A stretch of DNA of 64,000 nucleotides from a virus (IMGVR_UViG_3300025674_000016:1-64000); one strand, 5' to 3'; positions 1,098 to 18,217 are shown, numbered from the stretch's first letter. The notes: generated by a model from the letters alone, not told the origin. Numbers and translations: made by a program.

Positions 1098-2168
1098 ATG
1101 CTATTGAAACGAGGGGACCGCAGCGAAGAAGTCAAAGCGGTTCAAGAAAAACTAAAACAATTAAATTTCTATGCTGGTGGTGTTGACGGCATCTTTGGCC
1201 AAAACACAGATCGGGCAGTTCGTTCTTTTCAGGCTTCACGAGGTCTTCTTGTGGATGGTGTCGTTGGCCCTCAAACAAACGCCGCTTTGCGAAAGGCTAC
1301 AGGGCAAAAAACAGCACCTTCTAGCCCTTTGAAAGCTCCAAGAGGCCAGAACTCCGTTCCACCAACTCACGACAGTATTTCGGCCTGTAGTCACGCTGCA
1401 TGGTCAAGGTATAAAAGTTTTAAAGATTGTTTATTGGGTAGCAACAATACAGGCGAGCATGTTTTCTATGGACCGGGGCGTGGCCTTTTTGAACAAGACA
1501 AATGGGTTGTCTCATATGGCCCAGGCAAGCTAGGCAGAAAAACATGGGCAGTTAAAGGCGGTAAGACAGGCCCAAGCTTGCACTGTTCTAGTTTAACAAA
1601 TTTATTTTTGGGATATCTGCTCAATTATAATGATAAGTGGACACACCAAGGCAATATGCCAGATCAAATGAAAATGTGTTTGCAAGATGATGGGCTGCAC
1701 CCGCTTCCTCAAAATAAAAAGATTAAGTATCGAGGATACGGCGACAATTGCATGCGCCTTGCAAGCAACGGCGATACCGCAGAAAGATGGGGTATTGGCG
1801 GCAAGTTTATGCACAACAGGCTTGATGCCCTTGAAGTCTGGGAGCGCAGAAAAGAACTGGCCACTTTCAATATCTGGGCTCAAAGCACAAAGAAAGGCCG
1901 CTCTTCAAAAATGAAGTGGGACCACCATGTAGGCTTATTTATTTATGACCATGCCGAAGACCGAATGTGGCGATTGGCTGCTGATGGCTATAGGGGCAGT
2001 GGCGGTGCTTATTCTGCAACGCCCGTTCAATATCGTGAAATAGATGCTGCTTGGTCAAAGCAAGACGCAGAAAACAAATTTTATCAGATTATGCGAATTA
2101 TCCCTGATGATGAGCATGGCAATTTTGGATTGGGCAGTGAATCTTTGCCAATGGAGGTTGAGGAGTGA
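1098..2168 (+). CDS. peptidoglycan-binding domain protein with putative Cys-His (NlpC/P60/CHAP-like) hydrolase domain; endolysin candidate
   Basis: N-terminal PG_binding_1 (LKRGDRSEEVKAVQ..L...DGIFG..T..AV..FQ...GL.VDGVVGPQT); later HCSSL and DHHVG motifs; AGGAG SD. Confidence 0.75.
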   Translation: MLLKRGDRSEEVKAVQEKLKQLNFYAGGVDGIFGQNTDRAVRSFQASRGLLVDGVVGPQTNAALRKATGQKTAPSSPLKAPRGQNSVPPTHDSISACSHAAWSRYKSFKDCLLGSNNTGEHVFYGPGRGLFEQDKWVVSYGPGKLGRKTWAVKGGKTGPSLHCSSLTNLFLGYLLNYNDKWTHQGNMPDQMKMCLQDDGLHPLPQNKKIKYRGYGDNCMRLASNGDTAERWGIGGKFMHNRLDALEVWERRKELATFNIWAQSTKKGRSSKMKWDHHVGLFIYDHAEDRMWRLAADGYRGSGGAYSATPVQYREIDAAWSKQDAENKFYQIMRIIPDDEHGNFGLGSESLPMEVEE

Positions 2169-3661
2169 AAATTACAAAGACTGAATTAAAATCAATAATT
2201 TCAGAAGAGATGTCTTATGAGATCTTAGAACAAAGATTGGATTTATTAAACGAGGATCTTCGTTATATAAATAATAAAAAATTACTAAAGGAAGGTTTTT
2301 TAGACGCTGCGCAAGGTGTCTTGGACCTAGTTGGGCTAATACCTGGCGCTGGTGAGATTGCAGATGCTATTAATGGTGTGGTCTCTTTATTGAGGGCTCT
2401 TGTGGAGTCAGAAGGTAAATTTGAAAACGTATTAAATGCAATTTTTTCTTTTATATCAATGGTGCCAGCAATAGGAGATGCAGTTGGAAAAGGTGGCAAA
2501 CTTGGCATTTATTTTATAAAAATTTTAGATAAATTTCCCCAACTTAAAAAAGCGGGAGACTTAATTAATGCTGCAAAGAGCAATAAAAAATTAATGTTTG
2601 TTGTCACTAACGCTAAAAAGTTTTTCTCTGATCATGGTGACAAAGTAGTAGGTGTAGTGAAAGCTTTGCAAGAAAAAGATGTTGATTCTATCTATAGAAT
2701 TTTTAATATTAAAAAAATTAAAAATGAAAGAGTTCAACAAAAGATAGACCTCTTATTTGAACAAGGTCTAGAGGGCATCAGTGAAAGAATGCAGGGATTA
2801 GATACCGATTCTTTAACCAGTGCTATTGAAGTTCTTAATGGTTTAAATTTGCAAACAAATGAATCTATAAATAACCATAGTAATTCAATTACTAAATCAA
2901 AATTAAGACAAATTATTCGTGAAGAGTTAAATAAGCAACTCCATAAAGAAGGTATTTTTGATACACTTAAAGGCGCTTTTGGGGGCAAGAAAAGCACCAC
3001 TGGCGACTTGGATTTAGAAGCCAATGGGGACTTGGGTTCAAAGCTGGAAGAGAAAGAGAAAGAATTTAAAGCAGCAGGGACTATAGAAAAAGGAAGCCTA
3101 CGACAACCGTTTATAGATCTTGTTAATCAAGCCTTAGAAAGTAGTGATCCGGTCGCCAAAGAAAAGGCAAACGAAATAAAGAAAAAATATCGCTCTCTTT
3201 TTATAGATCCTGAGCCTTTCGATGGAAACTTGAGTTTATATTCAGGCAAAGATTTGAGTAGACAAGGTTTTAAAGGTAAAGACCTCAGAAATGTGAACTT
3301 TTCAAAATCCGATTTGCAAAATGCAAATTTTGAAAATGCTATTTTTTCTATTGACCCTGCTTTGGGTAAAGAAAATTACATTTTTTCTGGGAGTGACATT
3401 ACTGGGGCCAACTTCAAAGGTATAAGAATATATGTCCAAGGTTTAGATCAAAGTTGGCCAAAAGATGGAAAGCTCCCTTACACAGAGGAAGGTGAAGGAT
3501 ATATAGAGCGCCCAGAAGGAAACCTGCACGGCAGTCGCTACCGTCCGCGTGCTATGAGAGACTCTGACAGGAAAGCGCGGGCAGAGCACATGGAACTTTT
3601 CAAAAAGTATTTCAAAATGCTAACTAAAGGCTCGATCATAAAAGGGTATCCAAAATTTTAA
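2165..3661 (+). CDS. leader-motif protein with pre-toxin TG-like domain and pentapeptide repeats
   Basis: MKITKTELKSIISEE leader; LDLVGLIPGAGEIADAING...ISMVPAIGD; second internal leader ITKSKLRQIIREEL; DLRNVNFSKSDLQNANFENA repeats. Confidence 0.8.
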   Translation: MKITKTELKSIISEEMSYEILEQRLDLLNEDLRYINNKKLLKEGFLDAAQGVLDLVGLIPGAGEIADAINGVVSLLRALVESEGKFENVLNAIFSFISMVPAIGDAVGKGGKLGIYFIKILDKFPQLKKAGDLINAAKSNKKLMFVVTNAKKFFSDHGDKVVGVVKALQEKDVDSIYRIFNIKKIKNERVQQKIDLLFEQGLEGISERMQGLDTDSLTSAIEVLNGLNLQTNESINNHSNSITKSKLRQIIREELNKQLHKEGIFDTLKGAFGGKKSTTGDLDLEANGDLGSKLEEKEKEFKAAGTIEKGSLRQPFIDLVNQALESSDPVAKEKANEIKKKYRSLFIDPEPFDGNLSLYSGKDLSRQGFKGKDLRNVNFSKSDLQNANFENAIFSIDPALGKENYIFSGSDITGANFKGIRIYVQGLDQSWPKDGKLPYTEEGEGYIERPEGNLHGSRYRPRAMRDSDRKARAEHMELFKKYFKMLTKGSIIKGYPKF

Positions 3662-3695
3662 ATACTCTTAGAAACCAACTAGAAGAAAAATAAAA

Positions 3696-3776
3696 ATGAA
3701 GAAGATCAGCAGAAAGAAAATAGAAATAACTAAATTAAAATTAAAACAAATTATTCGTGAAGAGCTAAATAAGTGA
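3696..3776 (+). pseudogene. 26-codon chimeric mini-ORF (MKKISRKKIEITKLKLKQIIREELNK)
   Basis: 3693-3726 matches 4142-4175 at 32/34 nt; 3726-3773 matches 2888-2935 at 44/48 nt. Confidence 0.6.
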
Positions 3777-3782
3777 TATAAT
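3774..3782 (+). promoter_or_regulatory. extended -10 promoter TGaTATAAT, leaderless for the 3789 gene
   Basis: TG-n-TATAAT ends 6 nt before ATG 3789; no SD present. Confidence 0.6.
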
Positions 3783-3788
3783 GAATCC

Positions 3789-4148
3789 ATGAATTGGAAA
3801 ATAGTTCTTATCTCTGCTCTCTTGACAATTGTAGGCCAGATCTTGGTCTGGTTTCAATGCAGCCTGCAATATATTTCTGACTGGTGGAAAGATCACCCCA
3901 CACTCAATATTGTTTTATTTTCCCTTCCCGCAGCCTTTTGCTTTTATTGGGGCTGGACCTATATGGTTCAAGCCACCAATTCTTTATGGGCTGCTAGGCT
4001 AATTGGATTTGCAATTAGCTTTACAGTGTTCCCCTTTATGACGTGGTACTTTGTTGGCGAGAGCATGTTCAGGCCAAAGGTTATGATCTGCATTGTTCTT
4101 GCCATTATTATGATATTGGTTCAACTATTTTATCCGGAGACAAAATGA
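3789..4148 (+). CDS. 4-TM small membrane protein (DMT/EamA-like size)
   Basis: four hydrophobic segments in 119 aa. Confidence 0.75.
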   Translation: MNWKIVLISALLTIVGQILVWFQCSLQYISDWWKDHPTLNIVLFSLPAAFCFYWGWTYMVQATNSLWAARLIGFAISFTVFPFMTWYFVGESMFRPKVMICIVLAIIMILVQLFYPETK

Positions 4149-4369
4149 AGAAGATCAACAGAAAGAAAATGGAAAAAGATTTGTTATTGTTCGCAGAAAA
4201 GTTTGAAGACACAATAGTCGAGTGGCATGAATATGATGCTGCCAGCAAACAAGTTTTTATTTGGGTTGAAGGCAAGTGGGACTTGGACATTAAGTATGAG
4301 CTTAAAGATTATTTGCAAGAAAACTTTCACAATAGAATTCTTGTTAGCAGAATGATTTATAGAGATTAA
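4145..4369 (+). CDS. hypothetical protein (74 aa)
   Basis: ATG 4145 overlaps upstream TGA; GGAG SD. Confidence 0.65.
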   Translation: MKKINRKKMEKDLLLFAEKFEDTIVEWHEYDAASKQVFIWVEGKWDLDIKYELKDYLQENFHNRILVSRMIYRD

Positions 4370-4370
4370 G

Positions 4371-4554
4371 AGGCGTGGGCTACCCAACCCACCGCGCATG
4401 CTGCGCCCACCTGAACAGGGAGACAGGATTTTATACCTGTAAAAGATCAAGTATTCCTGGCTGTCTTATTCCTTGATCCGAGTCGTGTATGCATGTCGCC
4501 AGTAGAACTCTGCGTGTTTTCCGCCGCTCCCCTACCATCAGGGTATCTTCATTT
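4371..4554 (-). ncRNA. candidate structured ncRNA (unassigned)
   Basis: GC-rich intergenic island, several stems, G-U pairs that work only on the minus strand, dedicated promoter directly upstream. Confidence 0.55.
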
Positions 4555-4560
4555 ATAATA

Positions 4561-4589
4561 AATATAACACAGTCACAATATTTTGTCAA
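4561..4589 (-). promoter_or_regulatory. sigma70-type promoter TTGACA-17-TATATT
   Basis: -35 at 4589-4584, -10 at 4566-4561. Confidence 0.8.
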
Positions 4590-4656
4590 CTGTTTTTATA
4601 AAAAAAATAACTAATTATTTGGAATAAGAAAATTACAGTAAGGGAGAAACAAAAGC

Positions 4657-4929: not shown

Positions 4930-5128
4930 TTATCTTTCTTGGGCCAGTGGCAAGACAAGCCAAGCTCAGGAATCAAATAAAGGATCTATTTATAAAGACG
5001 AACAATCTATAGATGTTAAGCAAATAGAAAAGCTTGACGAAGAACTACTTGATCTCAAACAACAAATAACAGAGATCAAAAGGAAGCAGCAAAATGATAA
5101 GGATTATAATCAGAGGAAAAGACGGTAA
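4865..5128 (+). CDS. single-TM coiled-coil protein overlapping the previous gene
   Basis: LRIFSGIAFVLLISYLSWA helix, C-terminal coiled coil, GAGG SD. Confidence 0.55.
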   Translation: MPMKLSKTLRIFSGIAFVLLISYLSWASGKTSQAQESNKGSIYKDEQSIDVKQIEKLDEELLDLKQQITEIKRKQQNDKDYNQRKRR

Positions 5129-5693
5129 AGCCAAGCTTTGCCCCGAAGCAACTCAAGATCTCGAATTAAATACAAAAAATAGGGACGCCTCTATAAAAGC
5201 AGATCATATACAATATGGCCCTCTTAATGTTGATGAGCCGGGTAGCTACTGGAAGGATATTGCAGACCACTGGGATACTGCCGAGGAGGCTGCAAAAAAA
5301 TCTCTTTGTGGTAACTGTGTTGCATTTGATATCTCTCCAAGAATGAAAGATTGTATGCCAGGTGAAACGTCTGATGACGACGGTGAGCTAGGCTATTGCT
5401 GGATGCATCATTTTAAATGTCACTCTGCAAGATCTTGCCGAACATGGGCAAAAGGTGGCCCAATCAAAAACGACGAAAAGTCAAAAGAATGGCAAGACAA
5501 AAACAAAGAACAATTAGACGAAAAGAAAAAGAAACGTAAAAAGAAGAAAAAGAAACGTAAAAAGAAGAAAAAGAAAGCAGGGGATAGATGTGTGAGAATT
5601 GCAAAGCGCAAGTATGACGTTTGGCCCTCTGCCTACGCCTCTGGCGCTGTAGTTAAGTGCAGGCAAGGTAAAATATGGAAGGGTGAAAAATGA
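5094..5693 (+). CDS. Cys-rich (HiPIP-like CGNC...C...C..W) plus poly-Lys phage protein
   Basis: LCGNCVAF...GYC...FKCHSARSCRTW; LDE then 18 K/R; KRKYDVWPSAYASG module. Confidence 0.85.
   Translation: MIRIIIRGKDGKAKLCPEATQDLELNTKNRDASIKADHIQYGPLNVDEPGSYWKDIADHWDTAEEAAKKSLCGNCVAFDISPRMKDCMPGETSDDDGELGYCWMHHFKCHSARSCRTWAKGGPIKNDEKSKEWQDKNKEQLDEKKKKRKKKKKKRKKKKKKAGDRCVRIAKRKYDVWPSAYASGAVVKCRQGKIWKGEK
5523..5576 (+). repeat. 21-nt tandem repeat encoding a poly-Lys/Arg tract
   Basis: AAGAAAAAGAAACGTAAAAAG x2 plus a partial third copy. Confidence 0.8.
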
Positions 5694-6229
5694 TAAGAAT
5701 TAGAATTGTTTCATCACTAAAAAGCAAAATAAGAAAAGCTCTTCACGATGAAGGTGGCGCTGCCGGTATGGATGCCTTGATAAAACATACCGGCTCTGAC
5801 AAGCAAACTATAGATGCCGCTGTTCAGGAGATGCCAGATGTTGCGATACACAAGCACGGGGATTATATCATTGACGACGATGCTTGGGTGGATGTTGATG
5901 GCACTCAAAGAATAGATGAAAAAAAGAAGCGTAAAAAAAAACGCAAAAAAAAGAAACGTAAAAAGAAAGCCGGTACTGAATCCTCAAAGGAAAGCTCTTT
6001 AAGAGACTGGTTTGGCAGAAGAGGCGGTAAAGGCAAAGCCAAGGGCTGGGTTGATTGCAATACATGCCGCAAAGATAAGAAGACAGGTCGCAAAAAATGC
6101 AAGCCTTGCGGTCGCCAAAAAGGCGAAAAAAGATCAAAATATCCAGCTTGCCGACCAACGCCCGGAGCCTGCGAAGAAAGAGGTCGTGGTAAGAGTTGGG
6201 GCAAAAAATCCAAAAAGGGGAAAAAATAA
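5690..6229 (+). CDS. highly basic Cys-containing phage protein
   Basis: IDE then 16 K/R; LRDWF...GWVDC...PCGR...KYPACRP module. Confidence 0.85.
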   Translation: MIRIRIVSSLKSKIRKALHDEGGAAGMDALIKHTGSDKQTIDAAVQEMPDVAIHKHGDYIIDDDAWVDVDGTQRIDEKKKRKKKRKKKKRKKKAGTESSKESSLRDWFGRRGGKGKAKGWVDCNTCRKDKKTGRKKCKPCGRQKGEKRSKYPACRPTPGACEERGRGKSWGKKSKKGKK

Positions 6230-6486
6230 TGAAACTAACAAAAAGTCTATTGGAGTCTCTAATCAGGGAAGCACTAGAAGAGACAGGATGTAGAGGAAGA
6301 GAACTAGAAGAAGGCAACTGTGTAAGCGAAGAAGAACAAACTTTAGAGGAAAAGAAAAAGAAGAAAAAGAAAAAATCCAAAAAAGTTGAAAACCCAAGAA
6401 AGTACAAAAAGAGGAATTACGATAGAGATGGTGACGGTGTTCCAAATGGGGCAGACTCTAAACCAGATGATGGTAGTAAATCATGA
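6229..6486 (+). CDS. leader-motif protein with poly-Lys tract and DxDGDG (TSP3-like) motif
   Basis: MKLTKSLLESLIREAL; LEE-KKKKKKKK; DRDGDGVPNGAD; start at ATG 6229 overlapping upstream TAA. Confidence 0.75.
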   Translation: MKLTKSLLESLIREALEETGCRGRELEEGNCVSEEEQTLEEKKKKKKKKSKKVENPRKYKKRNYDRDGDGVPNGADSKPDDGSKS

Positions 6487-7076
6487 AAATGCAAAACTTA
6501 TTTGAAGGCTTCAGAAAATGGTCAAATGAAAAGCCTATTATTTCTGAGGCTCTTCAGTATCACATAGATCACGATGTTGGAATTGATAGAAATGTATTCA
6601 GGCCGGGATCTAAAGAGTTTTTATCTTTATTCAAAGAAGTTAGAGATCTCTATAATAAAGGCCAATACAAACTAAACGAAGGTGAAGAATATTATATTCT
6701 CGAAACAGACATAGGCGAATACGCTTTATATGAAGGCGAGATGGTCCCTCTTGATATGCCGATGCCGATTGAGGAAGCTAAAAAGAGGCGTAAAAAAAAG
6801 AAAAAGAAAAACCCTCCTCTCAACAAACCTTCGCTAAACACAGGCGGCGGCAAAAAGTGGAAAGTCTTTGTTCGAAGTAAATCAGGTGGTGTTAAAAAAG
6901 TTACCTTTGGAGACAAGAAAGGCGGATTGAAAGGCAACTGGAATGATCCAAAAGCTCGCGCATCTTTTGCAAAAAGACACAAGTGTGCAGAGAAAAAAGA
7001 TAAAACCAAAGCAGGCTACTGGTCTTGTAGGGCACACAAATACTTTGGCAAGAATGTCCCAGGCCGTTTCTGGTGA
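6483..7076 (+). CDS. phage protein with basic C-terminal module (KKWKVFV...VKKVTFGD...ARASFAKRHKC)
   Basis: MKMQNLFEGFRKW leader; IEE-A-KKRRKKKKKK junction. Confidence 0.85.
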   Translation: MKMQNLFEGFRKWSNEKPIISEALQYHIDHDVGIDRNVFRPGSKEFLSLFKEVRDLYNKGQYKLNEGEEYYILETDIGEYALYEGEMVPLDMPMPIEEAKKRRKKKKKKNPPLNKPSLNTGGGKKWKVFVRSKSGGVKKVTFGDKKGGLKGNWNDPKARASFAKRHKCAEKKDKTKAGYWSCRAHKYFGKNVPGRFW

Positions 7077-7085: not shown

Positions 7086-8096
7086 ATGAAGTTAATCTTT
7101 GAAAACTGGCGGAGGCACTTAAAAGAAAATTTTTCTCAAGGGGGTGAATACTTCTTGAGGTTCGGAGACCCACGAGAGGTAAAAAACTCTGTTATACACG
7201 ATCCTAGAATGGAATATGAGCGACTATCTTCTGATGACTGGTCTAGCGGCATGGTGCATCAGAAATATGAAGCTGGTATTTCCGCATACCCAGTCTTGCA
7301 TTATGGTGAAGACAAAGTAGTTTTTGAAGCTCCTGTGGGGCTTGATGTTTTTGCCGGTCAGGCTAAAGGGTTTCTTTTCGATAGATTGCTTAATCAAGAA
7401 ATATATGTTTTCAAAGCAGACAAGCTAAGTAAGGCCGGAACTGACGGTGAGCCATTGATCATCGACAACACAATAGAGGATGTTCAAAGAATAAAACATA
7501 GAAATATCTATTTGGGACAAGAAATCTGGGATGAAAAAGAGAAAAAGGCCACTCTCATACAATACAAAAATATATTTGATTTCATCAGGCCATATGATAT
7601 TAAATTCGAATATGAAAATAGTTATGAAAAGTTTTTTGACTACGATAAACACACAACCATCGATAAACTTCTGCCCCCCGAAGAGGTAAAGAAAAAATAT
7701 CAAGCAGAGTTTGATAGACTAAAACAGATCTTTCCAACAGAGGAACACCGTAAAGTAATAGACGAACAAATAACAGATTACGACGAGGAACTTGAGTATT
7801 ATAAAGAGCGTTATAAAAAAAAACAAGCAGATAGCATGCCCTTCTCTCAAGAACAAATAGATGAGTCCACATTTATCAGAGAGTTTAGTCAGGACATTGA
7901 CAGTGAAGAACTTATCTGGCACATGGATCGTGAAGATAGAACCGTTACCATCCTAGAGTCAAGTGGCTGGGAGTTTCAAATGGACAATGAACTTCCAAAG
8001 ATATTAAAAGAAGGCGATGTGCTTTTTATTCCCAAATACACTTATCACAGGGTAATTAAAGGTAGTGGAAAACTTATCGTGGAGATCAAAGAGTGA
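7086..8096 (+). CDS. leader-motif protein: possible R-S-E ART-like domain fused to C-terminal cupin
   Basis: MKLIFENWRRHLKE; FLRFG...EAGISAY...DGEPLI; WHMDREDR...LFIPKYTYHRVIKG. Confidence 0.7.
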   Translation: MKLIFENWRRHLKENFSQGGEYFLRFGDPREVKNSVIHDPRMEYERLSSDDWSSGMVHQKYEAGISAYPVLHYGEDKVVFEAPVGLDVFAGQAKGFLFDRLLNQEIYVFKADKLSKAGTDGEPLIIDNTIEDVQRIKHRNIYLGQEIWDEKEKKATLIQYKNIFDFIRPYDIKFEYENSYEKFFDYDKHTTIDKLLPPEEVKKKYQAEFDRLKQIFPTEEHRKVIDEQITDYDEELEYYKERYKKKQADSMPFSQEQIDESTFIREFSQDIDSEELIWHMDREDRTVTILESSGWEFQMDNELPKILKEGDVLFIPKYTYHRVIKGSGKLIVEIKE

Positions 8097-9463
8097 TAAA
8101 GGTATCAGTTAAGAAAAAAATATTAAAAGAATCCCTCTCATTAAATGAGGGTTCCCTCTCAAGCAATCTTGGGTTTCCCAAATCCTTAGAGGAAGCTTTT
8201 GAAGATATTTTTGGCAATCGTGTCACAACATATGGCAAGTGGTTTAAAGAGTATCAGGGAAAGTCTAGATATGGCGGCCCTTGGTATTCTGGCATAAGCC
8301 ACTACCAATCACCATCTGACTTGAGTCTGCTTGATTGTGTAAAAATGTTGGAGGCCATTCGAGTAAATGATGAAGAAAGATTTAATCAACTTATAGAAGT
8401 AGACGAATGGAGCGATAGGGGTGACTCTAAATGGGCAAAGATAGGATTAAAAGAAAAAGGCATGCAGAATGCCAAGCCATACTTGGAAAAACAACTACGC
8501 GACGGCCTCGTTGATGATGCCACATTTTTTACAAGAGATATTGTCGAAGATCGTGAAAAAATAAAAAAACAAGAATTTAAGCAATATTCAAAAATGTCTT
8601 TTAAAGATGCGTCCGCCAAGTATTCACGAATCAAAGCTTTTTCCGAGTCAAAAGAAGTAATGACATTTGATGATGGCCATAGGTGGCTTGACGTTGGTCC
8701 TGAGTGTCAGTTTGTTGGAAGGGAAATGAAAAACTGTGGATCGACAGGCGTTATGTCTTTAGACTCTGACAAAACAATGCTGATCTTGGTTGACTCTAAA
8801 AACAAGCCAAGAATTGTCGCTACACTATCTCCAAATGAAAAAAGATTATCCGGCGTTGAGGGCTCTGCCGGAAGTCTCCCGAAAGAAGAATACTACGACC
8901 ATATCGTTAAGCTTGCAGATTTTCTAGATGTAAAATTTGATGTTACAAGATCTAATTCGTTTTTATTAAATTTGAAATATTTGTTCAGAGGGGTCAAGAT
9001 AAAAATCAAACGACTAAAAACAGATAACGAGTATGAGAGGCTTTATGAGATTATCTTACCAGATAAAAGAAAATTGTACTCTGATACATCCTATTTTTTT
9101 CTAGAAGATGAAGCAAGAAAAGCGGGCGAGATCTTAAATCAAAAACATTTCTCAAAGCCTGTTAATTTTTCAACACGGCTTAGGAACAATATAAAAAAAA
9201 TATTTCACGGCAGAAACCGGCAACTTGTTGGTGATAAGGTCGAATATTACACGATATACACTATAAGTCAATTCGCAGATGAATTAAGATCAACCTCTAA
9301 GCAACCAATCAAAGAAGAGATCCGCAAGACAGGCAGCAAGTGGTGTCTTTATTCCAAGAAGAAAACAAAAAAAGGCAAAAAGAAAAAGCTTGGCTGCTAT
9401 GGGACCAAGGGCGGTGCAAAGAAAAGAGAAAAGCAGGTACAATATTTTAAACACAAGGGGTAA
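8093..9463 (+). CDS. multidomain phage protein (PcfJ-like G..MxxC motif; basic C-terminal module)
   Basis: FDDGHRW...CQFVGREMKNCG; IKEE-IRKTGSKWCLYSK...LGCY..K..A.KRE. Confidence 0.75.
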   Translation: MIKVSVKKKILKESLSLNEGSLSSNLGFPKSLEEAFEDIFGNRVTTYGKWFKEYQGKSRYGGPWYSGISHYQSPSDLSLLDCVKMLEAIRVNDEERFNQLIEVDEWSDRGDSKWAKIGLKEKGMQNAKPYLEKQLRDGLVDDATFFTRDIVEDREKIKKQEFKQYSKMSFKDASAKYSRIKAFSESKEVMTFDDGHRWLDVGPECQFVGREMKNCGSTGVMSLDSDKTMLILVDSKNKPRIVATLSPNEKRLSGVEGSAGSLPKEEYYDHIVKLADFLDVKFDVTRSNSFLLNLKYLFRGVKIKIKRLKTDNEYERLYEIILPDKRKLYSDTSYFFLEDEARKAGEILNQKHFSKPVNFSTRLRNNIKKIFHGRNRQLVGDKVEYYTIYTISQFADELRSTSKQPIKEEIRKTGSKWCLYSKKKTKKGKKKKLGCYGTKGGAKKREKQVQYFKHKG

Positions 9464-9705: not shown

Positions 9706-10869
9706 ATGAAACTAACATCAAAATACCTAAAAAAATTAATATTGGAAGCATTTGTTGAAAAGCGTGGTAAATTTCTATGCTGGCATGCTTTTGGATGGGG
9801 TGGCCAATCAGCGGGACAGCGTGGCAAAATGGACCCAGAGCTTATGGATAAGTTTGGTGTCAAACTAAGAGCAAGAATGATAAAAGAGAAGGGCTTTACT
9901 CCTGGTAATGGAGCAATGTACGGAATGGGCGTCTATACCGTTATGGACCCAAGAGATATTAGTTATAATAAATACGGCCCTCTCGCGCTTCAATTTGAGA
10001 TTTCCAAATCAGCAGTCGATCAAAGTTTTCTTGTGATTCCATCTAACCATGACGATAACCAGATAGAAGACTATAAATCAAGTGCCACAACGATTGAAGA
10101 ACAGTTGGAGGCATTCGGCGTCCTCAACGAAGAAACAGCGGGGTTAGTCAAAAAACATTCTGATGAATATTTTGGTAGTGGGCTAGCACTTGAACTATCC
10201 AGACTAAAATATGTAAGAGACGCAATAAAAGGTCTCATATTTCATGGCGCTCAAGATGGCCATGTTCTGGTTTGTTATGACCCTAGCCTATTAAAACTAA
10301 CAGGATACACATCGTCAAGAAACAGCCAACCTAGATATACAACCGAGATTGAATTTAGATTCAATAAAAACCCAAAAGAAATCCACAAGATTGTAAAAAA
10401 CTATTTTGATTTCCCCAATTCAGAAAGTATTGATCAACAAATTCAAACTTGCCAATACGTTGACAGATTTATGTCTGATAATGAGTACTCAAAAGAAGCA
10501 ATGCTTGATCATGCTCGAAATGGATTAAGGGTGGAAGAGCTAAGAACATTAAAGACATACATGCCAGAAGATACTGAGTTGTTGCCCGACGATGCTTGGG
10601 AAAGGCCGAATGAAGATGACTATAACGAACATGACATACTTTATGATAAGTTGCTGGATGGTACTTTAATACGGGACGAAGAGCGTGACATTGACGAATA
10701 TGCCGATCTTACATACCTTGGTTCTATGATTGATACAGAAGCCCAGCAGTATAAAGCAAGAGCATGGGCAGATTTTGTCCAGTTTATTGAAGGCGGAGCT
10801 TTTGAAGAAATGATCTCCGGTCTAGATGGATCTAAAAAACTATTCGGGATTAAAAAGATTAAACAATGA
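9706..10869 (+). CDS. leader-motif protein with PARP/diphtheria-toxin-like (H-Y) ADP-ribosyltransferase-fold domain
   Basis: MKLTSKYLKKLILEAF; CWHAFG...KGFTPGNGAMYGMGVYT...YG...KGLIF....DGHVLVCYD. Confidence 0.65.
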   Translation: MKLTSKYLKKLILEAFVEKRGKFLCWHAFGWGGQSAGQRGKMDPELMDKFGVKLRARMIKEKGFTPGNGAMYGMGVYTVMDPRDISYNKYGPLALQFEISKSAVDQSFLVIPSNHDDNQIEDYKSSATTIEEQLEAFGVLNEETAGLVKKHSDEYFGSGLALELSRLKYVRDAIKGLIFHGAQDGHVLVCYDPSLLKLTGYTSSRNSQPRYTTEIEFRFNKNPKEIHKIVKNYFDFPNSESIDQQIQTCQYVDRFMSDNEYSKEAMLDHARNGLRVEELRTLKTYMPEDTELLPDDAWERPNEDDYNEHDILYDKLLDGTLIRDEERDIDEYADLTYLGSMIDTEAQQYKARAWADFVQFIEGGAFEEMISGLDGSKKLFGIKKIKQ

Positions 10870-12191
10870 AACTAACAAGCAATATTTTAAAAAAATTAAT
10901 ACTAGAAGCCCTTAGAGAAAAATACGACTACTCTAGCGAAGAAGATGAAAACATTAAAGCTCTTAAAAAATACAAGGCAGCAGGGTTGTCTGGCGTATCA
11001 CAAAGAATTGGTAAGTGCCTTATCAAAAACAAAGAATACGCAAAGGGTAAAAGCTCCTTTTCTTACGAGGATCGGCTTTGCTTAGAAGAACAAGGTTTCA
11101 CTAAGCTTGGGTTGGGCTCGTTTAGGATTGTGTTTTTAGATAATCAAAATAAAGATAGAGTTATAAAGCTTGCTCTCGACCTACCCGAACAAGAAGAGGA
11201 AGATGAAGAGGAAGAACAAGAGGAAGAAGAACAAGAACAGCAAGAAGAAGAACAAGAACAGCAAGAAGAAGAACAAGAACAGGAAGAAGATGAAGAAGAG
11301 GAAGAAGAAGAGGTAGAAATTTCTAAAGGCATGTCTATGAACTTAAAAGAGGCAAGTTTAAGACTCCAAACCTTATCCCCAATGTTCCCGAAAGTTTACA
11401 GCAAACACCCACATGGCATTTGGATCGAGGTAGAAAGAGTAAATATTTTTAAATTTAAACACAAGGACGATTATTTCGGCAATGAAAGTTGGGCTCCGAT
11501 AAAAAAGTTTTTTCCAAACTTCTCCAAAAATTACCAGAAATTCGATCAGATAAGGACTGAACTCAAAGAATTGGTCCCAGACCTGATAACCGAAGCCGCA
11601 GGGCAAAAATACACTCTTGATGACATACACAAACTGCTTCCGTTTACTAAAGAAAAGCCATTAGACAAAGCATTTATGATTCCAGACATCCATTCAACAT
11701 ATCACTCCATTGCGGATAAAGAAAGCGCGTTTGTGGCAACGTGGAGTTTGCTTATTATTGGCAATAAGGGGCTTAGGGGTAAGTCTTCTTATAAATTTCT
11801 TTATGACAATATAATTTCCCGTGTAAGAACTATGGTCTCCCAAGTGTTTGATCCCAAAGAAGAACAAGAAGAAGAAGAAGAAAGCTTTATTGATGATGAA
11901 TGGTTTGAGGATTTTGTGTTCGAAAACTTAGATAAAAATAATGCAGTTATAGAAGAAATTGTAAATAAAGTAGAAAATTATCTACAACCAAGATTGCAAA
12001 GCGCGTATAAACTAATTACAAGTGACCGTACTTACCAAGAGCTTTTGAGAGTTCATGACGAACTTGATGAAGATTTTCAATTATGGGATTTGAGGCCAGA
12101 CAACTTGGGATCAGCAATAAGAAATGGAAAAGAAACTCTTGTGCTCATTGATCCTGGTTTCGATATGGATATCGACCCCAGAAATAGATAA
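10866..12191 (+). CDS. leader-motif protein kinase-like enzyme
   Basis: MKLTSNILKKLILEAL; LGLGSFRIVF (Gly loop), VIKLA, NLKEA, FPKVY, WDLRPDNLG (catalytic loop), LIDPGF. Confidence 0.85.
   Translation: MKLTSNILKKLILEALREKYDYSSEEDENIKALKKYKAAGLSGVSQRIGKCLIKNKEYAKGKSSFSYEDRLCLEEQGFTKLGLGSFRIVFLDNQNKDRVIKLALDLPEQEEEDEEEEQEEEEQEQQEEEQEQQEEEQEQEEDEEEEEEEVEISKGMSMNLKEASLRLQTLSPMFPKVYSKHPHGIWIEVERVNIFKFKHKDDYFGNESWAPIKKFFPNFSKNYQKFDQIRTELKELVPDLITEAAGQKYTLDDIHKLLPFTKEKPLDKAFMIPDIHSTYHSIADKESAFVATWSLLIIGNKGLRGKSSYKFLYDNIISRVRTMVSQVFDPKEEQEEEEESFIDDEWFEDFVFENLDKNNAVIEEIVNKVENYLQPRLQSAYKLITSDRTYQELLRVHDELDEDFQLWDLRPDNLGSAIRNGKETLVLIDPGFDMDIDPRNR
11187..11312 (+). repeat. 42-codon Glu/Gln tract with a 21-nt tandem unit
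   Basis: GAAGAAGAACAAGAACAGCAA at 11223, 11244 and (partial) 11265. Confidence 0.85.
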
Positions 12192-14776: not shown

Positions 14777-14896
14777 GCTATTTATAGTGCAAAAAATGCT
14801 TTAAAATAGCCCATTTCAAGGTATATTTTGCCCCATTTTTGGCCCTTTTTGGCCCTTAAATGGGGTATTTTTTTGCTTAAGATCTATAAAAATAGT
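14777..14896. repeat. nested inverted/direct repeat element in intergenic DNA
   Basis: 14803-14821 pairs with 14854-14871 (1 mismatch, 1 bulge); TTTTTGGCCC x2 at 14836-14855. Confidence 0.65.
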
Positions 14897-14920
14897 ATGT
14901 CTTGGAGGATAAATAAGCAA

Positions 14921-16315
14921 ATGAGTAGCGATTCAAAACCTAAATTTAAGATAATCATTAAAGAACAGCAAGAAAAACAAGAGCTAGAAGAAGGTTTTTT
15001 GGATTATGTTAGTGTTATCGGCGGAGATATCAAAAATTCAGTACAAAACTACTTTAAGAGCGTTGGGGACAGAGCAAATACAAGATCAAATAGGAGAGCC
15101 GCCAATACATTAATAAAGAAACTACAATCACAATTGGCACCATTGAAGAAAAAGTGTGATAGAAACCCCTCACAGTGTGACGAAAGAACAAAAAAAATTA
15201 TTCAAAATCTTGAAGGGTTGATTAGCAATCTTCAAGAAAATCCAGATGGTACACTAGAGGCAATTGATGGAGATCGGCTCGATCTAAGTGCTCGACGGGT
15301 ACTAGCGCCGAGTACCCCAATTACGGGAACAAGATCAGAACCATCAGCACAGCCAGAAGCAGACGGTGGTCCAGCACAGTCAACAGAGCCCCCAGCGCAG
15401 CCAGCAGCAAGCGGTAGTCCAACACAACAACAAGATCGGCCAGCACAACAAAAAAAGCCCAAACCAGCACAAAAAGCTAGACAATTAAGAAAAAATCCCA
15501 AGCCTGGCAAGGTTCTGTCTCGTGCCTCTGCTCTCTATAGGCTGCAAGCAGCAGGTGTTGAAGATCCAAAAGAAAAAGCAACACAAATTTCTCAAACAAT
15601 TAAAGACTTCTTAAAAGACAACCCCTCGATAAAAAATAAAGTTAAAGTACTTGCAGAAAACGTAAACTTGACTGTTGGAAAAGAGTCACTTTTGGCGACT
15701 TTGAGGAAGAACCACTCTGATGTGGATACTAGAATACTTCAAATAATCGTGTCAGATATAGCCGCACAATTAAAGGCAAGTAGAGTAGAATTAATCTCAA
15801 CAAAGAAACAACTAAGAAAAAGCAAAGAACAGCAAAGAAGTGATTCTGGTGAAGAGCAAACTAACACCGATAGTGAAGAACTAGATCAAGAAACTGAGAT
15901 TGAAAATCAAGAAACAGAAAAGAAAACAATCTTTGATGAGTGGTTGCAACAAAATTTTGAAGACACAACTGTAGAAGAGTGGCTTGTTGCAAACAGTAAC
16001 CAAAAAGACCGACTTATAATCCAATTGCTTAGAAACTATCTCATACACCAATTACATGACAACAAACCAGAGATAAAACAAAATATTTTAAGAGGTTTTA
16101 TTAATTATCTGAAGAGAAACCTGAAAGATGAGGCCAAAGGTAGAGCTAACAAATTACATGGACTTTTTAATACAACAATTAATCCAGGGGGCGGTTTCAG
16201 AAGAAAAGATCTATCCAATTACACAATGACTGAGGGCAAAACTCTTCAAGAATCATTTAACAAAAGAAACCAAAAGATATATAATTCTCTATTAAAGAAG
16301 TTTTTAAAAAATTGA
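14921..16315 (+). CDS. hypothetical charged protein (putative internal head protein)
   Basis: GGAGG SD before ATG 14921; KIIIKE...LEE-GFLD; PAQ-rich linker. Confidence 0.8.
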   Translation: MSSDSKPKFKIIIKEQQEKQELEEGFLDYVSVIGGDIKNSVQNYFKSVGDRANTRSNRRAANTLIKKLQSQLAPLKKKCDRNPSQCDERTKKIIQNLEGLISNLQENPDGTLEAIDGDRLDLSARRVLAPSTPITGTRSEPSAQPEADGGPAQSTEPPAQPAASGSPTQQQDRPAQQKKPKPAQKARQLRKNPKPGKVLSRASALYRLQAAGVEDPKEKATQISQTIKDFLKDNPSIKNKVKVLAENVNLTVGKESLLATLRKNHSDVDTRILQIIVSDIAAQLKASRVELISTKKQLRKSKEQQRSDSGEEQTNTDSEELDQETEIENQETEKKTIFDEWLQQNFEDTTVEEWLVANSNQKDRLIIQLLRNYLIHQLHDNKPEIKQNILRGFINYLKRNLKDEAKGRANKLHGLFNTTINPGGGFRRKDLSNYTMTEGKTLQESFNKRNQKIYNSLLKKFLKN

Positions 16316-16923
16316 AATATCAATTCTTAAATAAAACAGATAAAGATATGTCTAATATTGAGCAGTTTATAGATGAATTTTATCCCTATGCTCAAAAAAG
16401 ACTCAGCATCGACAAGCCTGTTACAATTATTCTGAAATCTGATAGCGATAATGCTAAAAAGATATTAGGAAAAACAGGCTATTACGATCCAGACAATCTT
16501 GAAGTGGTTGTCTATGTTGATAATAGGCACCCAAAAGATATCTTAAGATCAATATCTCACGAACTAATACACCATGCACAAAACTGTCGTGGCGAATTCG
16601 ATGATTCAGGCCCCCTTTATCAAGGTTATGCTCAAGATGACGATCAAATGAGAAAAATGGAAATGGAAGCCTATTTATTGAGTAACGGCGACGATTTAAT
16701 GATATTCAGGGACTTTGAAGATAAGATGAAAAAAGAAAAAGGAATGATTAACGAAAGTCTAGAAAAAAAAGATCTTGAAAAAAAGATTGCAGAAATCTTA
16801 AAGCAAAAACAAACAAAAAATAAAGAAAAGCCACAACCATTGCAGGAAAAAACTCAAATCTCAGATCAGCAGTGGTATCAGCAAGAACTTTACAAGAAGC
16901 TTGCAAAGAAGTGGTCGAAATAG
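16312..16923 (+). CDS. HExxH zinc metallopeptidase-like protein
   Basis: LGKTGYYDP...RHPKDILRSISHELIHHAQ...MEMEAY. Confidence 0.8.
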   Translation: MKYQFLNKTDKDMSNIEQFIDEFYPYAQKRLSIDKPVTIILKSDSDNAKKILGKTGYYDPDNLEVVVYVDNRHPKDILRSISHELIHHAQNCRGEFDDSGPLYQGYAQDDDQMRKMEMEAYLLSNGDDLMIFRDFEDKMKKEKGMINESLEKKDLEKKIAEILKQKQTKNKEKPQPLQEKTQISDQQWYQQELYKKLAKKWSK

Positions 16924-16933
16924 GAGAAAAACA

Positions 16934-17233
16934 ATGGCTAGCCCAAGAAAAAGAAGAGCATTGAAGCTTGCAAGAGCAAAAAGACTAGCAGAGGCAGCAA
17001 ATCCACAACCAGAGCCTAAAGTTGAAGAAACTTTGCCCGCAACTCCCCCTGCCCCTACGCCAGTTGAGGAGTTTAAGTGCGATAAATGCGATAAAGTTTT
17101 GGAGTCCAAAGACCAAGACTGCAAGGCGTGTGCAGAGCCTGGGCCTGAAAAGAAGAAACCTAGAACTAGAAGATCTAGAAAGAAGCCTGAGCAGGTTAGC
17201 GAGGCGGCTGTCGATGTCAAAACAGAAGAATGA
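16934..17233 (+). CDS. small Pro/charge-rich protein with CxxC..CxxC
   Basis: AGGAG SD before ATG 16934; KCDKC...DCKAC. Confidence 0.7.
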   Translation: MASPRKRRALKLARAKRLAEAANPQPEPKVEETLPATPPAPTPVEEFKCDKCDKVLESKDQDCKACAEPGPEKKKPRTRRSRKKPEQVSEAAVDVKTEE

Positions 17234-17399
17234 AACAAGAGAGCTTTTAGAGTCTTTAATAAAAGAAAGATTAAAGATTGTAATAAAAAAGCTCTTGCTA
17301 GGTGAAAAGGAGCTTGAAGAAGCTTCTACAGTGGCCGGTGGCAGTGTAGCAGGTGCCCCAGTTAGCAATAATAAAAACAATTCTCTTATTGGAGAATAA
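17214..17399 (+). CDS. small leader-like protein (LLESLIKE...LEE-ASTVAGGSVAG)
   Basis: GAGG SD before ATG 17214. Confidence 0.6.
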   Translation: MSKQKNETRELLESLIKERLKIVIKKLLLGEKELEEASTVAGGSVAGAPVSNNKNNSLIGE

Positions 17400-17413
17400 T
17401 ATGGAGTCAATAA

Positions 17414-18217
17414 ATGCATATCAATCGAGACGAACTTATCCAAGAAATGATTCTTAGGAAGCAAATTAGATCGATTATAAAAGAATCGTCTAAGCAGTGG
17501 ATCAAGGACAACCACCCTAATGAATACGGTCAATTTTTGGAAGAACAAAAACTCAGAAAAGCTATTCAATCTATTGCTCCTAGAATCTTAAATGAAGAGA
17601 TGTCTGACTCTGAGGCTGAGGATATGGCTATCTCTTTCGTTAGAGAGACTTTACTAGCTGTGATCAAAATTGTCAAGCAAGATCAGTCAAAATTTACTAG
17701 TTCTGAGGTTCAGGATGGATTTATTAAATTTTGTTTATTGGCGCTTAAAAATGATTTTGAGGAAAACAGAGGAGAAGAGTTTGAAGAATCCTCAAATGTC
17801 TCAGAAGAAGATGAAGATCTAGCAATTCTTAAAGAATTAGAAGACAACAACGATGGAATTGTTGATGTCAAGGTTGGACCTAAAGATGACCCAATGTTTA
17901 TTTCAGATGAACCAGACGAGCCCGAAGAAGAAGATGAGGAAGAAGATCTTTCTCCAAGAGAAACAAAAGAACAAGAGCTTTATTTAACTTTAAGCGATGA
18001 AGAAAAAGTAGGCTTTAGATATGCCAGAGATAATACTTGGCCTAAAGTTACTAAGCAGATTAAAAAAATACACAAGCAAGTCCTACCTCATAAAAAAGCA
18101 GTTGATTATTATGAAGAATGGTTAACTAAAAACTTTAAGTTACATGGTGAAAATACTAAAGAAGAAATGCCTTTGAAAGGCGAAGAAGAGCAAGAAGAAG
18201 AATCTTTAGAGCTATAA
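17414..18217 (+). CDS. acidic protein with repeated E..LRK.I leader motif (scaffold/internal head-like)
   Basis: EMILRKQIRSIIKE and EQKLRKAIQSI; GGAG SD. Confidence 0.75.
   Translation: MHINRDELIQEMILRKQIRSIIKESSKQWIKDNHPNEYGQFLEEQKLRKAIQSIAPRILNEEMSDSEAEDMAISFVRETLLAVIKIVKQDQSKFTSSEVQDGFIKFCLLALKNDFEENRGEEFEESSNVSEEDEDLAILKELEDNNDGIVDVKVGPKDDPMFISDEPDEPEEEDEEEDLSPRETKEQELYLTLSDEEKVGFRYARDNTWPKVTKQIKKIHKQVLPHKKAVDYYEEWLTKNFKLHGENTKEEMPLKGEEEQEEESLEL

What the first reader, a model, noticed from the sequence alone, without database searches (positions are those of the whole stretch)
2165..18217. Leader-tagged cargo cluster: a shared N-terminal signal on unrelated effector domains (candidate capsid-packaged effector system)
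Seen: proteins begin with, or contain, related short leaders ending in Glu: MKITKTELKSIISEE (2165), ITKSKLRQIIREE (2888, internal), MKLTKSLLESLIREA (6229), MKLTSKYLKKLILEA (9706), MKLTSNILKKLILEA (10866), LLESLIKE (17214), LRKQIRSIIKE (17414), and a second class MKLIFENWRRHLKE / MKMQNLFEGFRKWSNE (7086, 6483). Downstream domains are unrelated: pre-toxin TG, pentapeptide, ART-like, kinase, cupin, poly-Lys. Known: T4 internal proteins and Alt are packaged in the head, the IPs through a short capsid-targeting sequence, and gp21 protease cleaves after Glu in [IL]-x-E. Inference: this is an expanded, modular address-tag system for loading and injecting a variable set of effectors.
Basis: partly seen in the sequence, partly recalled or inferred. 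Interest (0 to 1): 0.9.

Follow-up and report, generated by a model that had tools for sequence, protein, structure and literature searches.

The report
Shared N-terminal tags on phage proteins
An uncultured marine T4-type phage puts the same 15-residue N-terminal tag, ending in the cutting motif of T4's head protease (a relative of which this phage encodes), on about a dozen otherwise unrelated proteins; this probably loads them into the capsid as T4 loads its internal proteins, but no cutting or packaging has been measured.

Summary
The core observation is real. The window is the first 64 kb of a 155.7-kb IMG/VR phage contig with a T4 gp21-type (S77) prohead protease and a gp23-type capsid protein. 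A leader M-K-[IL]-T-K-x-x-L-K-x-[IL]-[IL]-x-E heads g2165, g6229, g9706 and g10866, recurs inside g2165, and forms a leader-only mini-ORF (3696-3776). Five more copies lie outside the window. A second leader (M-K-L-L-x-E-N-W-R-x-[YF]-L-x-E) heads four genes. The two claimed sites at 17214 and 17414 are not supported.

Similarity between bearers stops after 16-22 residues. Relatives yielded 326 distinct bearers, and 288 bodies fall into 244 BLAST clusters. Conservation is at the protein level. The two leader classes swap on homologous bodies. Leader genes sit in hot spots flanking the protease gene. The capsid protein keeps L-L-[RK]-E|[AS] where T4 gp23 is cut.

Best reading (about 0.5): a T4-style capsid-targeting propeptide removed after Glu. 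Delivery of the cargo is less certain.

Cargo calls: pentapeptide repeats and a 2H phosphoesterase are solid, an ART-like fold is modest, and kinase, cupin and PT-TG are weak or unsupported.

This scan has found the same kind of system before on other DNA. I rate it a new variant of a known kind.

The parts
1063..1070 (+). Candidate late-type promoter box aACTATTTA, 35 nt upstream of g1098. The stop codon of g1098 overlaps the start of leader gene g2165.
   Evidence: The 8-mer occurs 17 times forward and 0 times reverse in the genome. Nine copies lie 29-50 nt upstream of a start codon, including those of the scaffold-like, sheath-like and tube-like genes. That it is a promoter is inference only.
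1098..2168 (+). g1098: a peptidoglycan-binding domain protein that has no leader and heads the operon containing g2165.
   Evidence: PF01471 E 4e-19. The endolysin PHROG hits cover only the PG-binding part.
2165..3661 (+). g2165: a two-module protein. Module A is leader 1 plus Gly-rich hydrophobic hairpins. Module B is an internal leader plus pentapeptide repeats and a basic tail.
   Evidence: Leader HMM hits at residues 3-17 and 242-256. PF00805 pentapeptide at residues 369-395. A relative carries a module-A homologue behind a class-2 leader (L081).
2885..2932 (+). Internal class-1 leader without a Met (SITKSKLRQIIREEL).
   Evidence: 23.1-23.6 bits. The ORF appears to be a fusion of two leader-cargo cassettes.
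3696..3776 (+). Leader-only mini-ORF: MKKISRKKIE, then ITKLKLKQIIREELNK, then a stop.
   Evidence: Its DNA is nearly identical to the internal leader, so direct repeats bracket the pentapeptide module. It is probably a recombination scar.
5094..6229 (+). g5094 and g5690: poly-Lys/Arg proteins with small Cys-containing basic modules and no class-1 or class-2 leader in this genome.
   Evidence: A g5094 homologue in relative L093 carries a class-2 leader. phrog_727.
6229..6486 (+). g6229: class-1 leader (…SLIRE|AL) on an 85-aa protein with an acidic part followed by a poly-Lys tract.
   Evidence: 27.5 and 18.3 bits.
6483..7076 (+). g6483: class-2 leader on a poly-Lys basic protein.
   Evidence: Class-2 HMM, 27.8 bits. 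Its body is homologous to a class-1-led protein in L196.
7086..8096 (+). g7086: class-2 leader (MKLIFENWRRHLKE) on a 336-aa protein with a possible C-terminal cupin.
   Evidence: Cupin_8 and Cupin_2 hits are below threshold (E 0.005 and 0.018).
8093..9463 (+). g8093: 456-aa protein of unknown function with a poly-Lys C-terminus. It starts MIKVSVKKKILKE.
   Evidence: No Pfam or PHROG family. Its start resembles the MIKLK…L.E leaders seen on homologues of the g9706 domain. This is a resemblance only.
9706..10869 (+). g9706: class-1 leader (…LILE|AF) on an ADP-ribosyltransferase-like fold (residues about 20-210) plus a C-terminal part of unknown function.
   Evidence: AlphaFold pLDDT 81. All top structural matches are ART folds with Z 5.5-7.0. 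Atlas lead to ART-PolyVal. The leader forms helix 5-17, outside the aligned fold.
10866..12191 (+). g10866: class-1 leader (…LILE|AL) on a protein with kinase-like motifs (GLGSF…VIK, DLRPDN, IDPG) and a poly-Glu insert.
   Evidence: Motifs read from the sequence. Atlas lead to Phage_T7_kinase. No Pfam or PDB sequence hit. Model pLDDT 51. The leader is kept in homologues of 71-92% identity, and three of them lack the poly-Glu insert.

Best explanation
The two leader classes are interchangeable N-terminal address tags that work like the capsid-targeting sequence of T4 internal proteins.

Proposed mechanism:
- A basic amphipathic helix of about 15 residues takes the newly made protein into the assembling prohead core.
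- The phage's gp21-family (S77) prohead protease then cuts after the invariant Glu of the [IL]-[IL]-x-E end.
- The mature cargo stays in the head with the DNA and probably enters the host with it.

Shown here:
- The tags, their modularity and their protein-level conservation.
- Their co-occurrence with an S77 protease.
- Their placement beside head-assembly genes.

Inferred:
- Targeting and cleavage, about 0.5.
- Ejection as effectors, about 0.35.
For: 1. The genome has an S77 gp21-type protease (1e-31) and a gp23-type MCP (1e-70).
2. Leader positions 1-5, 8, 9 and 11-15 are strongly conserved, and information content collapses after position 15-16 (326 distinct bearers). In the 43 hits fetched through the terminase, which were not selected by the leader pattern, 42 have Glu at position 14.
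3. The unrelated class-2 leader also ends in [LVMI]-x-E. At least five leader types on homologues of the g9706 domain all end in hydrophobic-x-E(E) just before the domain.
4. The MCP N-terminus keeps L-L-[RK]-E|[AS], followed by an indel-rich linker, about 20 residues before the conserved P-I-V-R-R-V block. In T4 gp23 the corresponding region reads F-L-T-E|A (sequence; the cut after Glu65 is from my own knowledge). Three window leaders read L-I-R-E|A or L-I-L-E|A.
5. In relatives, variable leader genes sit in hot spots between conserved head genes: before the terminase, between g88837 and the protease, and between the protease and g89829.
6. 9 of 9 leader-bearing contigs of 108-289 kb have an S77 protease.
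7. Class 1 and class 2 swap on homologous bodies.
8. Synonymous codons vary freely at conserved leader positions.
9. The conserved head-module protein g89829 has a related N-terminus (hhalign P 2.8e-4).
10. A candidate late-type box precedes the g1098-g2165 operon and leader gene g119926.
11. Recognisable cargo domains are small enzymes: 2H phosphoesterase, ART-like fold, GNAT, nucleotidyltransferase, HD and ParB-like nuclease. None is a replisome or tail protein.
12. T4's MKTYQEFIAE|A on IPII and IPIII was checked in the T4 genome. The principle is in print (PMC3012670).
Against: - No cleavage, packaging or ejection has been measured. No cultured relative or virion proteome is available.
- The leader has no sequence homology to the T4 CTS beyond the M-K start and the hydrophobic-x-E end, and it is 5 residues longer.
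- In most copies the residue after the putative cut is Glu. It is Ala in T4 IPII and IPIII and Ala or Ser in this lineage's MCP.
- Hydrophobic-x-Glu is a common tripeptide.
- 11-15 tagged genes per genome, and 24-26 in larger relatives, is far more than T4's handful.
- Many tagged genes lie in arrays far from the head module.
- The candidate late box is not enriched before leader genes overall (5% against 6% background).
- Co-occurrence with S77 may only reflect shared ancestry of these phages.
Confidence: 0.5

Rival explanations
1. The leader does target proteins to the prohead, but the cargo acts mainly inside the head as core, scaffold-like or DNA-condensing proteins (for example the poly-Lys proteins). 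It is degraded or stays in the head and does not act in the next host.
For: - Five neighbouring genes carry poly-Lys/Arg tracts.
- Leader-like N-termini occur on conserved head-module genes (g89829 and g83345).
- In T4, gp67, gp68 and gp22 are protease-processed core proteins (own knowledge; sequences).
Against: - Many cargo proteins look like enzymes: 2H phosphoesterase, ART-like fold, GNAT, nucleotidyltransferase and HD.
- The cargo set turns over between close relatives. That pattern fits arms-race genes better than structural ones.
Confidence: 0.15
2. The leader is a docking helix for some other shared partner or process unrelated to the capsid. Possibilities include oligomerisation among the tagged proteins, a phage chaperone (the genome appears from its N-terminal sequence to encode a GroEL-like protein at about 141.3 kb) or a modifying enzyme.
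For: - The leader is a generic basic amphipathic helix (helix 5-17 in the model).
- Many tagged genes lie far from the head genes.
- An earlier case in this scan (e1-127136) turned out to be better explained by a modifying enzyme.
Against: - No radical-SAM gene on the contig (the contig is 86% complete).
- This reading does not explain why two unrelated leader classes, and further types on the same cargo family, all end in hydrophobic-x-Glu.
- It does not explain why the variable tagged genes nest around the protease gene.
Confidence: 0.2
3. The leader is a stability or timing tag, that is a degron or protease-controlled activation peptide. It acts in the infected cell without any packaging.
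For: The conserved acidic end and sharp boundary fit any protease-recognised propeptide.
Against: - No dedicated cytoplasmic protease is linked to the tags.
- The only protease consistently co-occurring with them is the prohead protease.
- The trypsin-like gene at 19102-19926 begins with a hydrophobic stretch (read) that may be a signal peptide, which would not fit a cytoplasmic role.
Confidence: 0.08
4. The shared 5' ends are mainly DNA-level recombination handles for cassette exchange and have no function as peptides.
For: - Near-identical leader DNA between neighbouring genes (81406 and 82413; 2906-2935 and 3741-3770) and a leader-only scar at 3696-3776.
- T4's two CTS copies are also identical in DNA.
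Against: - Across 270 distinct leaders, all six Leu codons and all four Thr codons are used at the invariant positions.
- Selection therefore acts on the peptide. Recombination at leaders is a likely by-product.
Confidence: 0.04

Closest known systems
Phage T4 capsid-targeting sequence (CTS, MKTYQEFIAE) on internal proteins IPII and IPIII, with the related propeptides of IPI and Alt, removed by the gp21 prohead protease
   Same: - A short N-terminal tag shared by otherwise unrelated proteins.
- The tag starts M-K and ends hydrophobic-x-Glu.
- The phage has a gp21-family protease and a gp23-family capsid protein.
- Tag copies can be identical in DNA.
- The cargo set varies between relatives, as described for T-even phages (PMC3012670).
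- Possible parallel: T4 Alt is a packaged ADP-ribosyltransferase (own knowledge), and g9706 has an ART-like fold.
   Different: - 15-16 residues instead of 10, with no detectable sequence homology to the T4 CTS.
- At least two interchangeable leader classes in one genome.
- 11-15 tagged genes here and 24-26 in larger relatives, against a handful in T4.
- Hundreds of cargo families across the lineage.
- Glu rather than Ala usually follows the putative cut.
- Nothing has been shown experimentally.
Proteolytically processed ejection and internal head proteins of giant phages such as SPN3US and phiKZ (PMC5694885, PMC7411985, PMC10052503; these came up and I did not read them)
   Same: Many different head-internal proteins are processed by a prohead protease that cuts after Glu (own knowledge).
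   Different: - Those proteins are not known to share one common N-terminal tag. Their propeptides are long and varied (own knowledge).
- They belong to a different phage lineage.
Earlier findings of this scan: MIKLKDLLKE-type and other leaders in uncultured T4-like phages (e1-3862018, e1-5358537, e1-5341548, e1-5702602, e1-1066390)
   Same: Same architecture and same inference. MIKLK…L.E-type leaders appear here on homologues of the g9706 domain, which links the systems.
   Different: - A different leader consensus and a different lineage. The closest cultured MCPs are Microcystis phage Mel-JY01 at 38% and Rhodothermus phage RM378 at 32%.
- New here: swapping between two leader classes, and hot spots flanking the protease gene.

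Membership tests
T4-type capsid-targeting / prohead-protease propeptide system | The phage encodes a gp21-family (Peptidase_S77) prohead protease together with a gp23-type capsid protein. | tested here: met
   PF03420, 106 bits, at genome 89200-89832. PF07068, 234 bits, at 92028-93767.
T4-type capsid-targeting / prohead-protease propeptide system | A short N-terminal tag shared by otherwise unrelated proteins. | tested here: met
   BLASTP similarity is limited to 16-22 residues. 288 bodies fall into 244 clusters. 314 of 326 tags start at a Met.
T4-type capsid-targeting / prohead-protease propeptide system | The tag ends in the gp21 cleavage motif [LI]-x-Glu. | tested here: met
   Positions 11-14 are [IL]-I-x-E. 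Glu is found at position 14 in 42 of 43 leader hits fetched through the terminase, not through the leader DNA pattern. Class 2 ends in [LVMI]-x-E.
T4-type capsid-targeting / prohead-protease propeptide system | Sequence homology of the tag to the T-even CTS MKTYQEFIAE. | tested here: not met
   Only the M-K start and the hydrophobic-x-E end are shared. The T4 CTS was verified. I therefore do not file this as a member of the T-even IP family, only as working like it.
T4-type capsid-targeting / prohead-protease propeptide system | The tag is removed by the prohead protease. | not testable with these tools
   There is only the indirect parallel with the conserved L-L-[RK]-E|[AS] in the MCP propeptide.
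T4-type capsid-targeting / prohead-protease propeptide system | The cargo is present inside virions and is ejected with the DNA. | not testable with these tools
   No cultured relative or proteome is available.
ADP-ribosyltransferase fold (g9706, residues about 20-210) | ART beta-sandwich fold with an H-Y-E-type catalytic triad. | tested here: inconclusive
   - Model pLDDT 81.
- All top VIA rows are ARTs (ParT Z 7.0, MbcT 6.7, cholix 6.5, PARP 5.5), but every Z is below 8.
- Foldseek E values are 3e-3 or weaker.
- His27 and Tyr77 are conserved. The third catalytic position may be Asp184, which I judged by eye.
- No Pfam ART hit.
Protein kinase-like (g10866) | Gly-rich loop plus Lys, a catalytic D-x-x-x-x-N loop, a DFG-like motif and a kinase fold. 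| tested here: inconclusive
   - The motifs are visible in the sequence.
- Atlas lead to Phage_T7_kinase, which only 11-17% of cluster members carry.
- No Pfam or PDB sequence hit.
- The model is too poor to search with (pLDDT 51).
2H phosphoesterase (g81877, outside the window) | Two H-x-T/S motifs and a Pfam 2H-family match. | tested here: met
   PF08302, 28.4 bits against a cut-off of 23. HHMTIV and HITIA are visible in the sequence.
Pentapeptide repeat (g2165, module B) | Pfam PF00805 match above its cut-off. | tested here: met
   33.9 bits against a cut-off of 20.2.
Pre-toxin TG domain (g2165, module A) | A Pfam PT-TG match. | tested here: inconclusive
   No PT-TG hit even at E up to 10. 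The only hit is DUF4112, below its cut-off (19.4 bits against 23.3).

The most novel reading that the evidence does not exclude
A large, uncultured marine lineage of T4-type phages uses interchangeable N-terminal tags as a general capsid-loading code. Each virion would then carry a genome-specific kit of up to dozens of ready-made enzymes, such as an ART-like protein, a kinase-like protein, a 2H phosphoesterase, GNATs, nucleotidyltransferases and HD hydrolases. These would act in the host before any phage gene is expressed. If so, the tag would be a sequence-only predictor of injected anti-defence and takeover effectors across ocean viromes.
Probability: 0.33. Interest if true: 0.8.

Novelty: new variant of a known kind. 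Interest (0 to 1): 0.6.

Why it matters
If the tags really load proteins into the head, they give a simple sequence rule for listing what thousands of uncultured ocean phages inject along with their DNA. That class of proteins includes first-strike anti-defence enzymes and is almost invisible to annotation: only about 10 of the 84 largest cargo proteins have any Pfam family.

The tags would also offer longer capsid-loading tags, different from the T4 CTS, for packaging foreign proteins in T4-like particles.

If the tags turn out to do something else, they are still one of the most widespread unexplained peptide modules in marine T4-like phages.

Tried and rejected
- Complex prediction of the scaffold-like protein (alignment A3) with the leader (alignment A4) gave no verdict: score 0.00, controls not run. 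It counts neither for nor against binding.
- The T4 late promoter TATAAATA is not enriched (6 forward, 14 reverse).
- The generic sigma-70 promoter and terminator scan of 1-20000 gave counts equal to shuffled expectation.
- The candidate late box CTATTTA is not enriched upstream of leader genes as a class: 18 of 339 and 5 of 45, against 6% background.
- Megablast of the region against cultured phages found no match.
- tblastn of a consensus leader against cultured phages gave only one weak hit, in an uncultured huge-phage record.
- tblastn of the ART-like domain and of a more typical family member against cultured phages found no match.
- Word-indexed homologue searches for g9706 and g10866 returned only close relatives.
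- The AlphaFold model of g10866 was too poor (pLDDT 51) to search with.
- phmmer against PDB sequences found nothing for g9706 or g10866.
- hhalign of the leader against the scaffold N-terminus showed no similarity (probability 0.4%).
- A full-text search for the leader peptide in papers gave 0 hits.
- No radical-SAM gene was found on the contig.
- The leaders claimed at 17214 and 17414 are rejected as noise.

Full report
**What the DNA is.** The window is bases 1-64000 of a single 155,702-bp IMG/VR virus contig, linear and about 86% complete. In my crude gene call, 167 of 187 ORFs lie on the + strand.
- The genome encodes a gp21-family Peptidase_S77 prohead protease (89200-89832, 106 bits).
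- It encodes a gp23-family major capsid protein (92028-93767, 234 bits).
- By position and N-terminal sequence it also has terminase-like, portal-like and scaffold-like genes. PHROGs gives a baseplate wedge match.
- It encodes a tmRNA.
- The nearest cultured capsid proteins are Microcystis phage Mel-JY01 (38%) and Rhodothermus phage RM378 (32%). This is a deep, uncultured marine branch of T4-type phages, and there is no DNA match to any cultured phage.

**Checking the observation.** The class-1 leader (M-K-[IL]-T-K-x-x-L-K-x-[IL]-[IL]-x-E) is present exactly where stated at 2165, 2888 (internal), 6229, 9706 and 10866. The class-2 leader is at 6483 and 7086.
- An HMM built only from relatives' leaders, so independent of this genome, gives 11 hits of 12-32 bits in the six-frame translation of the whole genome.
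- All 11 are on the + strand in coding frames. The next score is 7.2 bits.
- The sites claimed at 17214 and 17414 are not among the hits and are rejected.
- BLASTP between all bearers finds similarity only in the first 16-22 residues. 'Same head, unrelated bodies' therefore holds.

**How general it is.** I fetched 80 related loci through the terminase.
- These loci, about 2 Mb in all, contain 326 distinct class-1 bearers, and 314 of them begin at a Met.
- Information content is high at positions 1-5, 8, 9 and 11-15 and collapses after position 15-16. What follows is a Gly/Asp/Glu/Ser/Pro-rich stretch.
- 288 bodies fall into 244 BLAST clusters, of which 217 are singletons.
- All six Leu and all four Thr codons are used at the invariant positions, so selection acts on the peptide, not on an RNA or DNA element.
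- Larger relatives carry 24-26 class-1 genes, mostly in tandem arrays. One has 17 copies within 8 kb.

**Evidence tying the tag to head assembly.**
1. Both unrelated leader classes end in hydrophobic-x-Glu. This is the T4 gp21 rule (own knowledge), visible in T4 IPII and IPIII as FIAE|A. In the 43 leader hits fetched through the terminase, 42 have Glu at position 14.
2. Homologues of the g9706 domain in a 1.8-billion-protein library carry at least five different N-terminal leader types: class 1, class 2, MIKLK…L.E, …SLIRE.LL.EE and MNFKEWLL.EE. Each ends in hydrophobic-x-E(E) a few residues before the conserved V-Y-H-R-T start of the domain. A few homologues start directly at that motif.
3. 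The capsid protein's N-terminal extension keeps L-L-E-N-Q-A-K-E-L-L-[RK]-E|[AS] followed by an indel-rich linker. This lies about 20 residues before the block that aligns with T4's M-V-R-R. Three window leaders end L-I-R-E|A or L-I-L-E|A.
4. Synteny. Relatives share a fixed backbone: g77125, g77555, g80383, g82800, terminase, portal, g87357, g88175, g88837, protease, g89829, g90255, g90518, scaffold and MCP.
   - The leader genes are the variable inserts, mostly without a homologue in this genome.
   - They fall in a few hot spots: before the terminase, between g88837 and the protease, between the protease and g89829, and near g72267.
   - T4's own processed core genes 67 and 68 sit next to gene 21.
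5. Nine of nine leader-bearing contigs of 108-289 kb encode an S77 protease.
6. Homologous bodies carry class 1 in one phage and class 2 in another. Examples are this genome's g6483 against L196, and L081 against g2165 module A. A g5094 homologue gains a class-2 leader in L093.
7. The conserved gene right after the protease (g89829) starts with a related peptide. The similarity is modest (hhalign P 2.8e-4, probability 41%).
8. A strand-specific box aACTATTTA (17 forward, 0 reverse) lies 29-50 nt upstream of the scaffold-like, sheath-like and tube-like genes, and also upstream of g1098 (which runs into g2165) and of leader gene g119926. It is not enriched at leader genes in general.

**Cargo.**
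- Solid: pentapeptide repeats in g2165 module B and a 2H phosphoesterase in g81877 (PF08302 above its cut-off, with two H-x-T motifs).
- Modest: g9706 residues 20-210 model well (pLDDT 81). Every top structural match is an ADP-ribosyltransferase fold (ParT, MbcT, cholix, exotoxin A, PARP), but with Z of only 5.5-7.0. The leader is a separate helix (residues 5-17) outside the aligned fold.
- Weak: the kinase label for g10866 rests on motifs read by eye and an Atlas lead, and the model failed. The cupin hits on g7086 are below threshold. Pre-toxin TG has no support.
- Among the 84 largest tagged proteins of relatives, only about ten have a Pfam family. These are small enzymes (GNAT, nucleotidyltransferase, HD, P-loop kinase-like, ParB-like nuclease), never replisome or tail proteins.
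- Five neighbouring genes carry poly-Lys/Arg tracts. That would suit DNA-associated internal proteins, but this is inference.

**Mechanism and rivals.** The best reading is a T4-style capsid-targeting propeptide: an amphipathic helix takes the protein into the prohead core, the S77 protease cuts after Glu14, and the cargo stays with the DNA. I put targeting plus cleavage at about 0.5 and delivery as effectors at about 0.35.
- Head-internal role only: 0.15.
- Docking helix for another partner: 0.2. No radical-SAM enzyme is present.
- Degron or activation peptide: 0.08.
- Pure recombination handle: 0.04, disfavoured. The leader-only scar and near-identical leader DNA do show that leaders are recombination sites.
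- Main weaknesses: no experiment exists, hydrophobic-x-Glu is a common tripeptide, Glu rather than Ala usually follows the putative cut, and co-occurrence with S77 could be shared ancestry.

[quoted passage not shown] 1994).
- This system works like it but is not a sequence member of the T-even IP family. The tag is longer and not homologous. At least two interchangeable classes coexist. The repertoire is an order of magnitude larger.
- No paper in the held library contains the leader peptide.
- This scan has already reported the same kind of system on other DNA (e1-3862018, e1-5358537, e1-5341548, e1-5702602, e1-1066390). The MIKLK-type leader of one of them appears here on homologues of g9706.

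Noticed in passing
window 18798-19104 (+) and 19102-19926 (-): The phage encodes a tmRNA (tag DESQFEYAMAA; Rfam RF00023, 92.6 bits). It directly abuts a minus-strand trypsin-like peptidase (PF13365) whose N-terminus contains a hydrophobic stretch.
   Followed up: partly
genome-wide, for example window 1063, 12517 and 19983; G000 90966, 93845, 96485, 99505 and 119895: The strand-specific 8-mer aACTATTTA occurs 17 times forward and 0 times reverse. Nine copies lie 29-50 nt upstream of start codons, mostly of head and tail genes. It is a candidate late promoter for this lineage. The T4 late box TATAAATA is not enriched.
   Followed up: partly
window 5094-9463: Five consecutive genes (5094, 5690, 6229, 6483, 8093) carry poly-Lys/Arg tracts of about 11-19 residues next to small Cys-containing basic modules such as W-P-S-A-Y-A-S-G-A-V-V-K-C-R. 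In relative L170 such modules are strung into one 843-aa open frame.
   Followed up: partly
window 16312-16923: This protein has an HExxH motif (HELIH). If translation starts at the ATG at 16348 it begins MSNIEQFIDEF, which closely resembles the T4 CTS MKTYQEFIAE. Two homologues in relatives do not keep this N-terminus.
   Followed up: partly
window 11170-11330 (g10866, residues about 108-150): The poly-Glu/Gln insert in the kinase-like protein is absent from three homologues of 72-83% identity, so it is a recent low-complexity expansion.
   Followed up: yes
window 3696-3776 and 2885-2935: A leader-only mini-ORF whose DNA is nearly identical to the internal leader of g2165. The two copies form direct repeats bracketing the pentapeptide-repeat module. 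This looks like a scar of cassette recombination.
   Followed up: yes
window 1-1032: The contig's first 2 kb has a higher GC content than the rest (47% against about 37%). It holds a minus-strand ORF at 110-451 and a small ORF at 724-1032 (-) that looked GIY-YIG-like to me by eye.
   Followed up: no
window 13787-14776: A short (329 aa) adenylosuccinate synthetase homologue (PF00709, E 3e-81), an auxiliary metabolic gene.
   Followed up: no
window 20025-34259 and 41325-59853: A PIN-PhoH fusion (20025-21359), a PD-(D/E)XK nuclease, and a block of glycosyltransferase and sugar-epimerase genes up to about 34 kb. Two giant ORFs of 2089 and 2857 aa lie on either side of a baseplate-wedge homologue.
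   Followed up: no
G001 (289-kb relative) 52.5-60.2 kb; G002 170-179 kb: Larger relatives hold 24-26 class-1 leader genes, mostly in dense tandem arrays on the same strand as the protease gene.
   Followed up: partly
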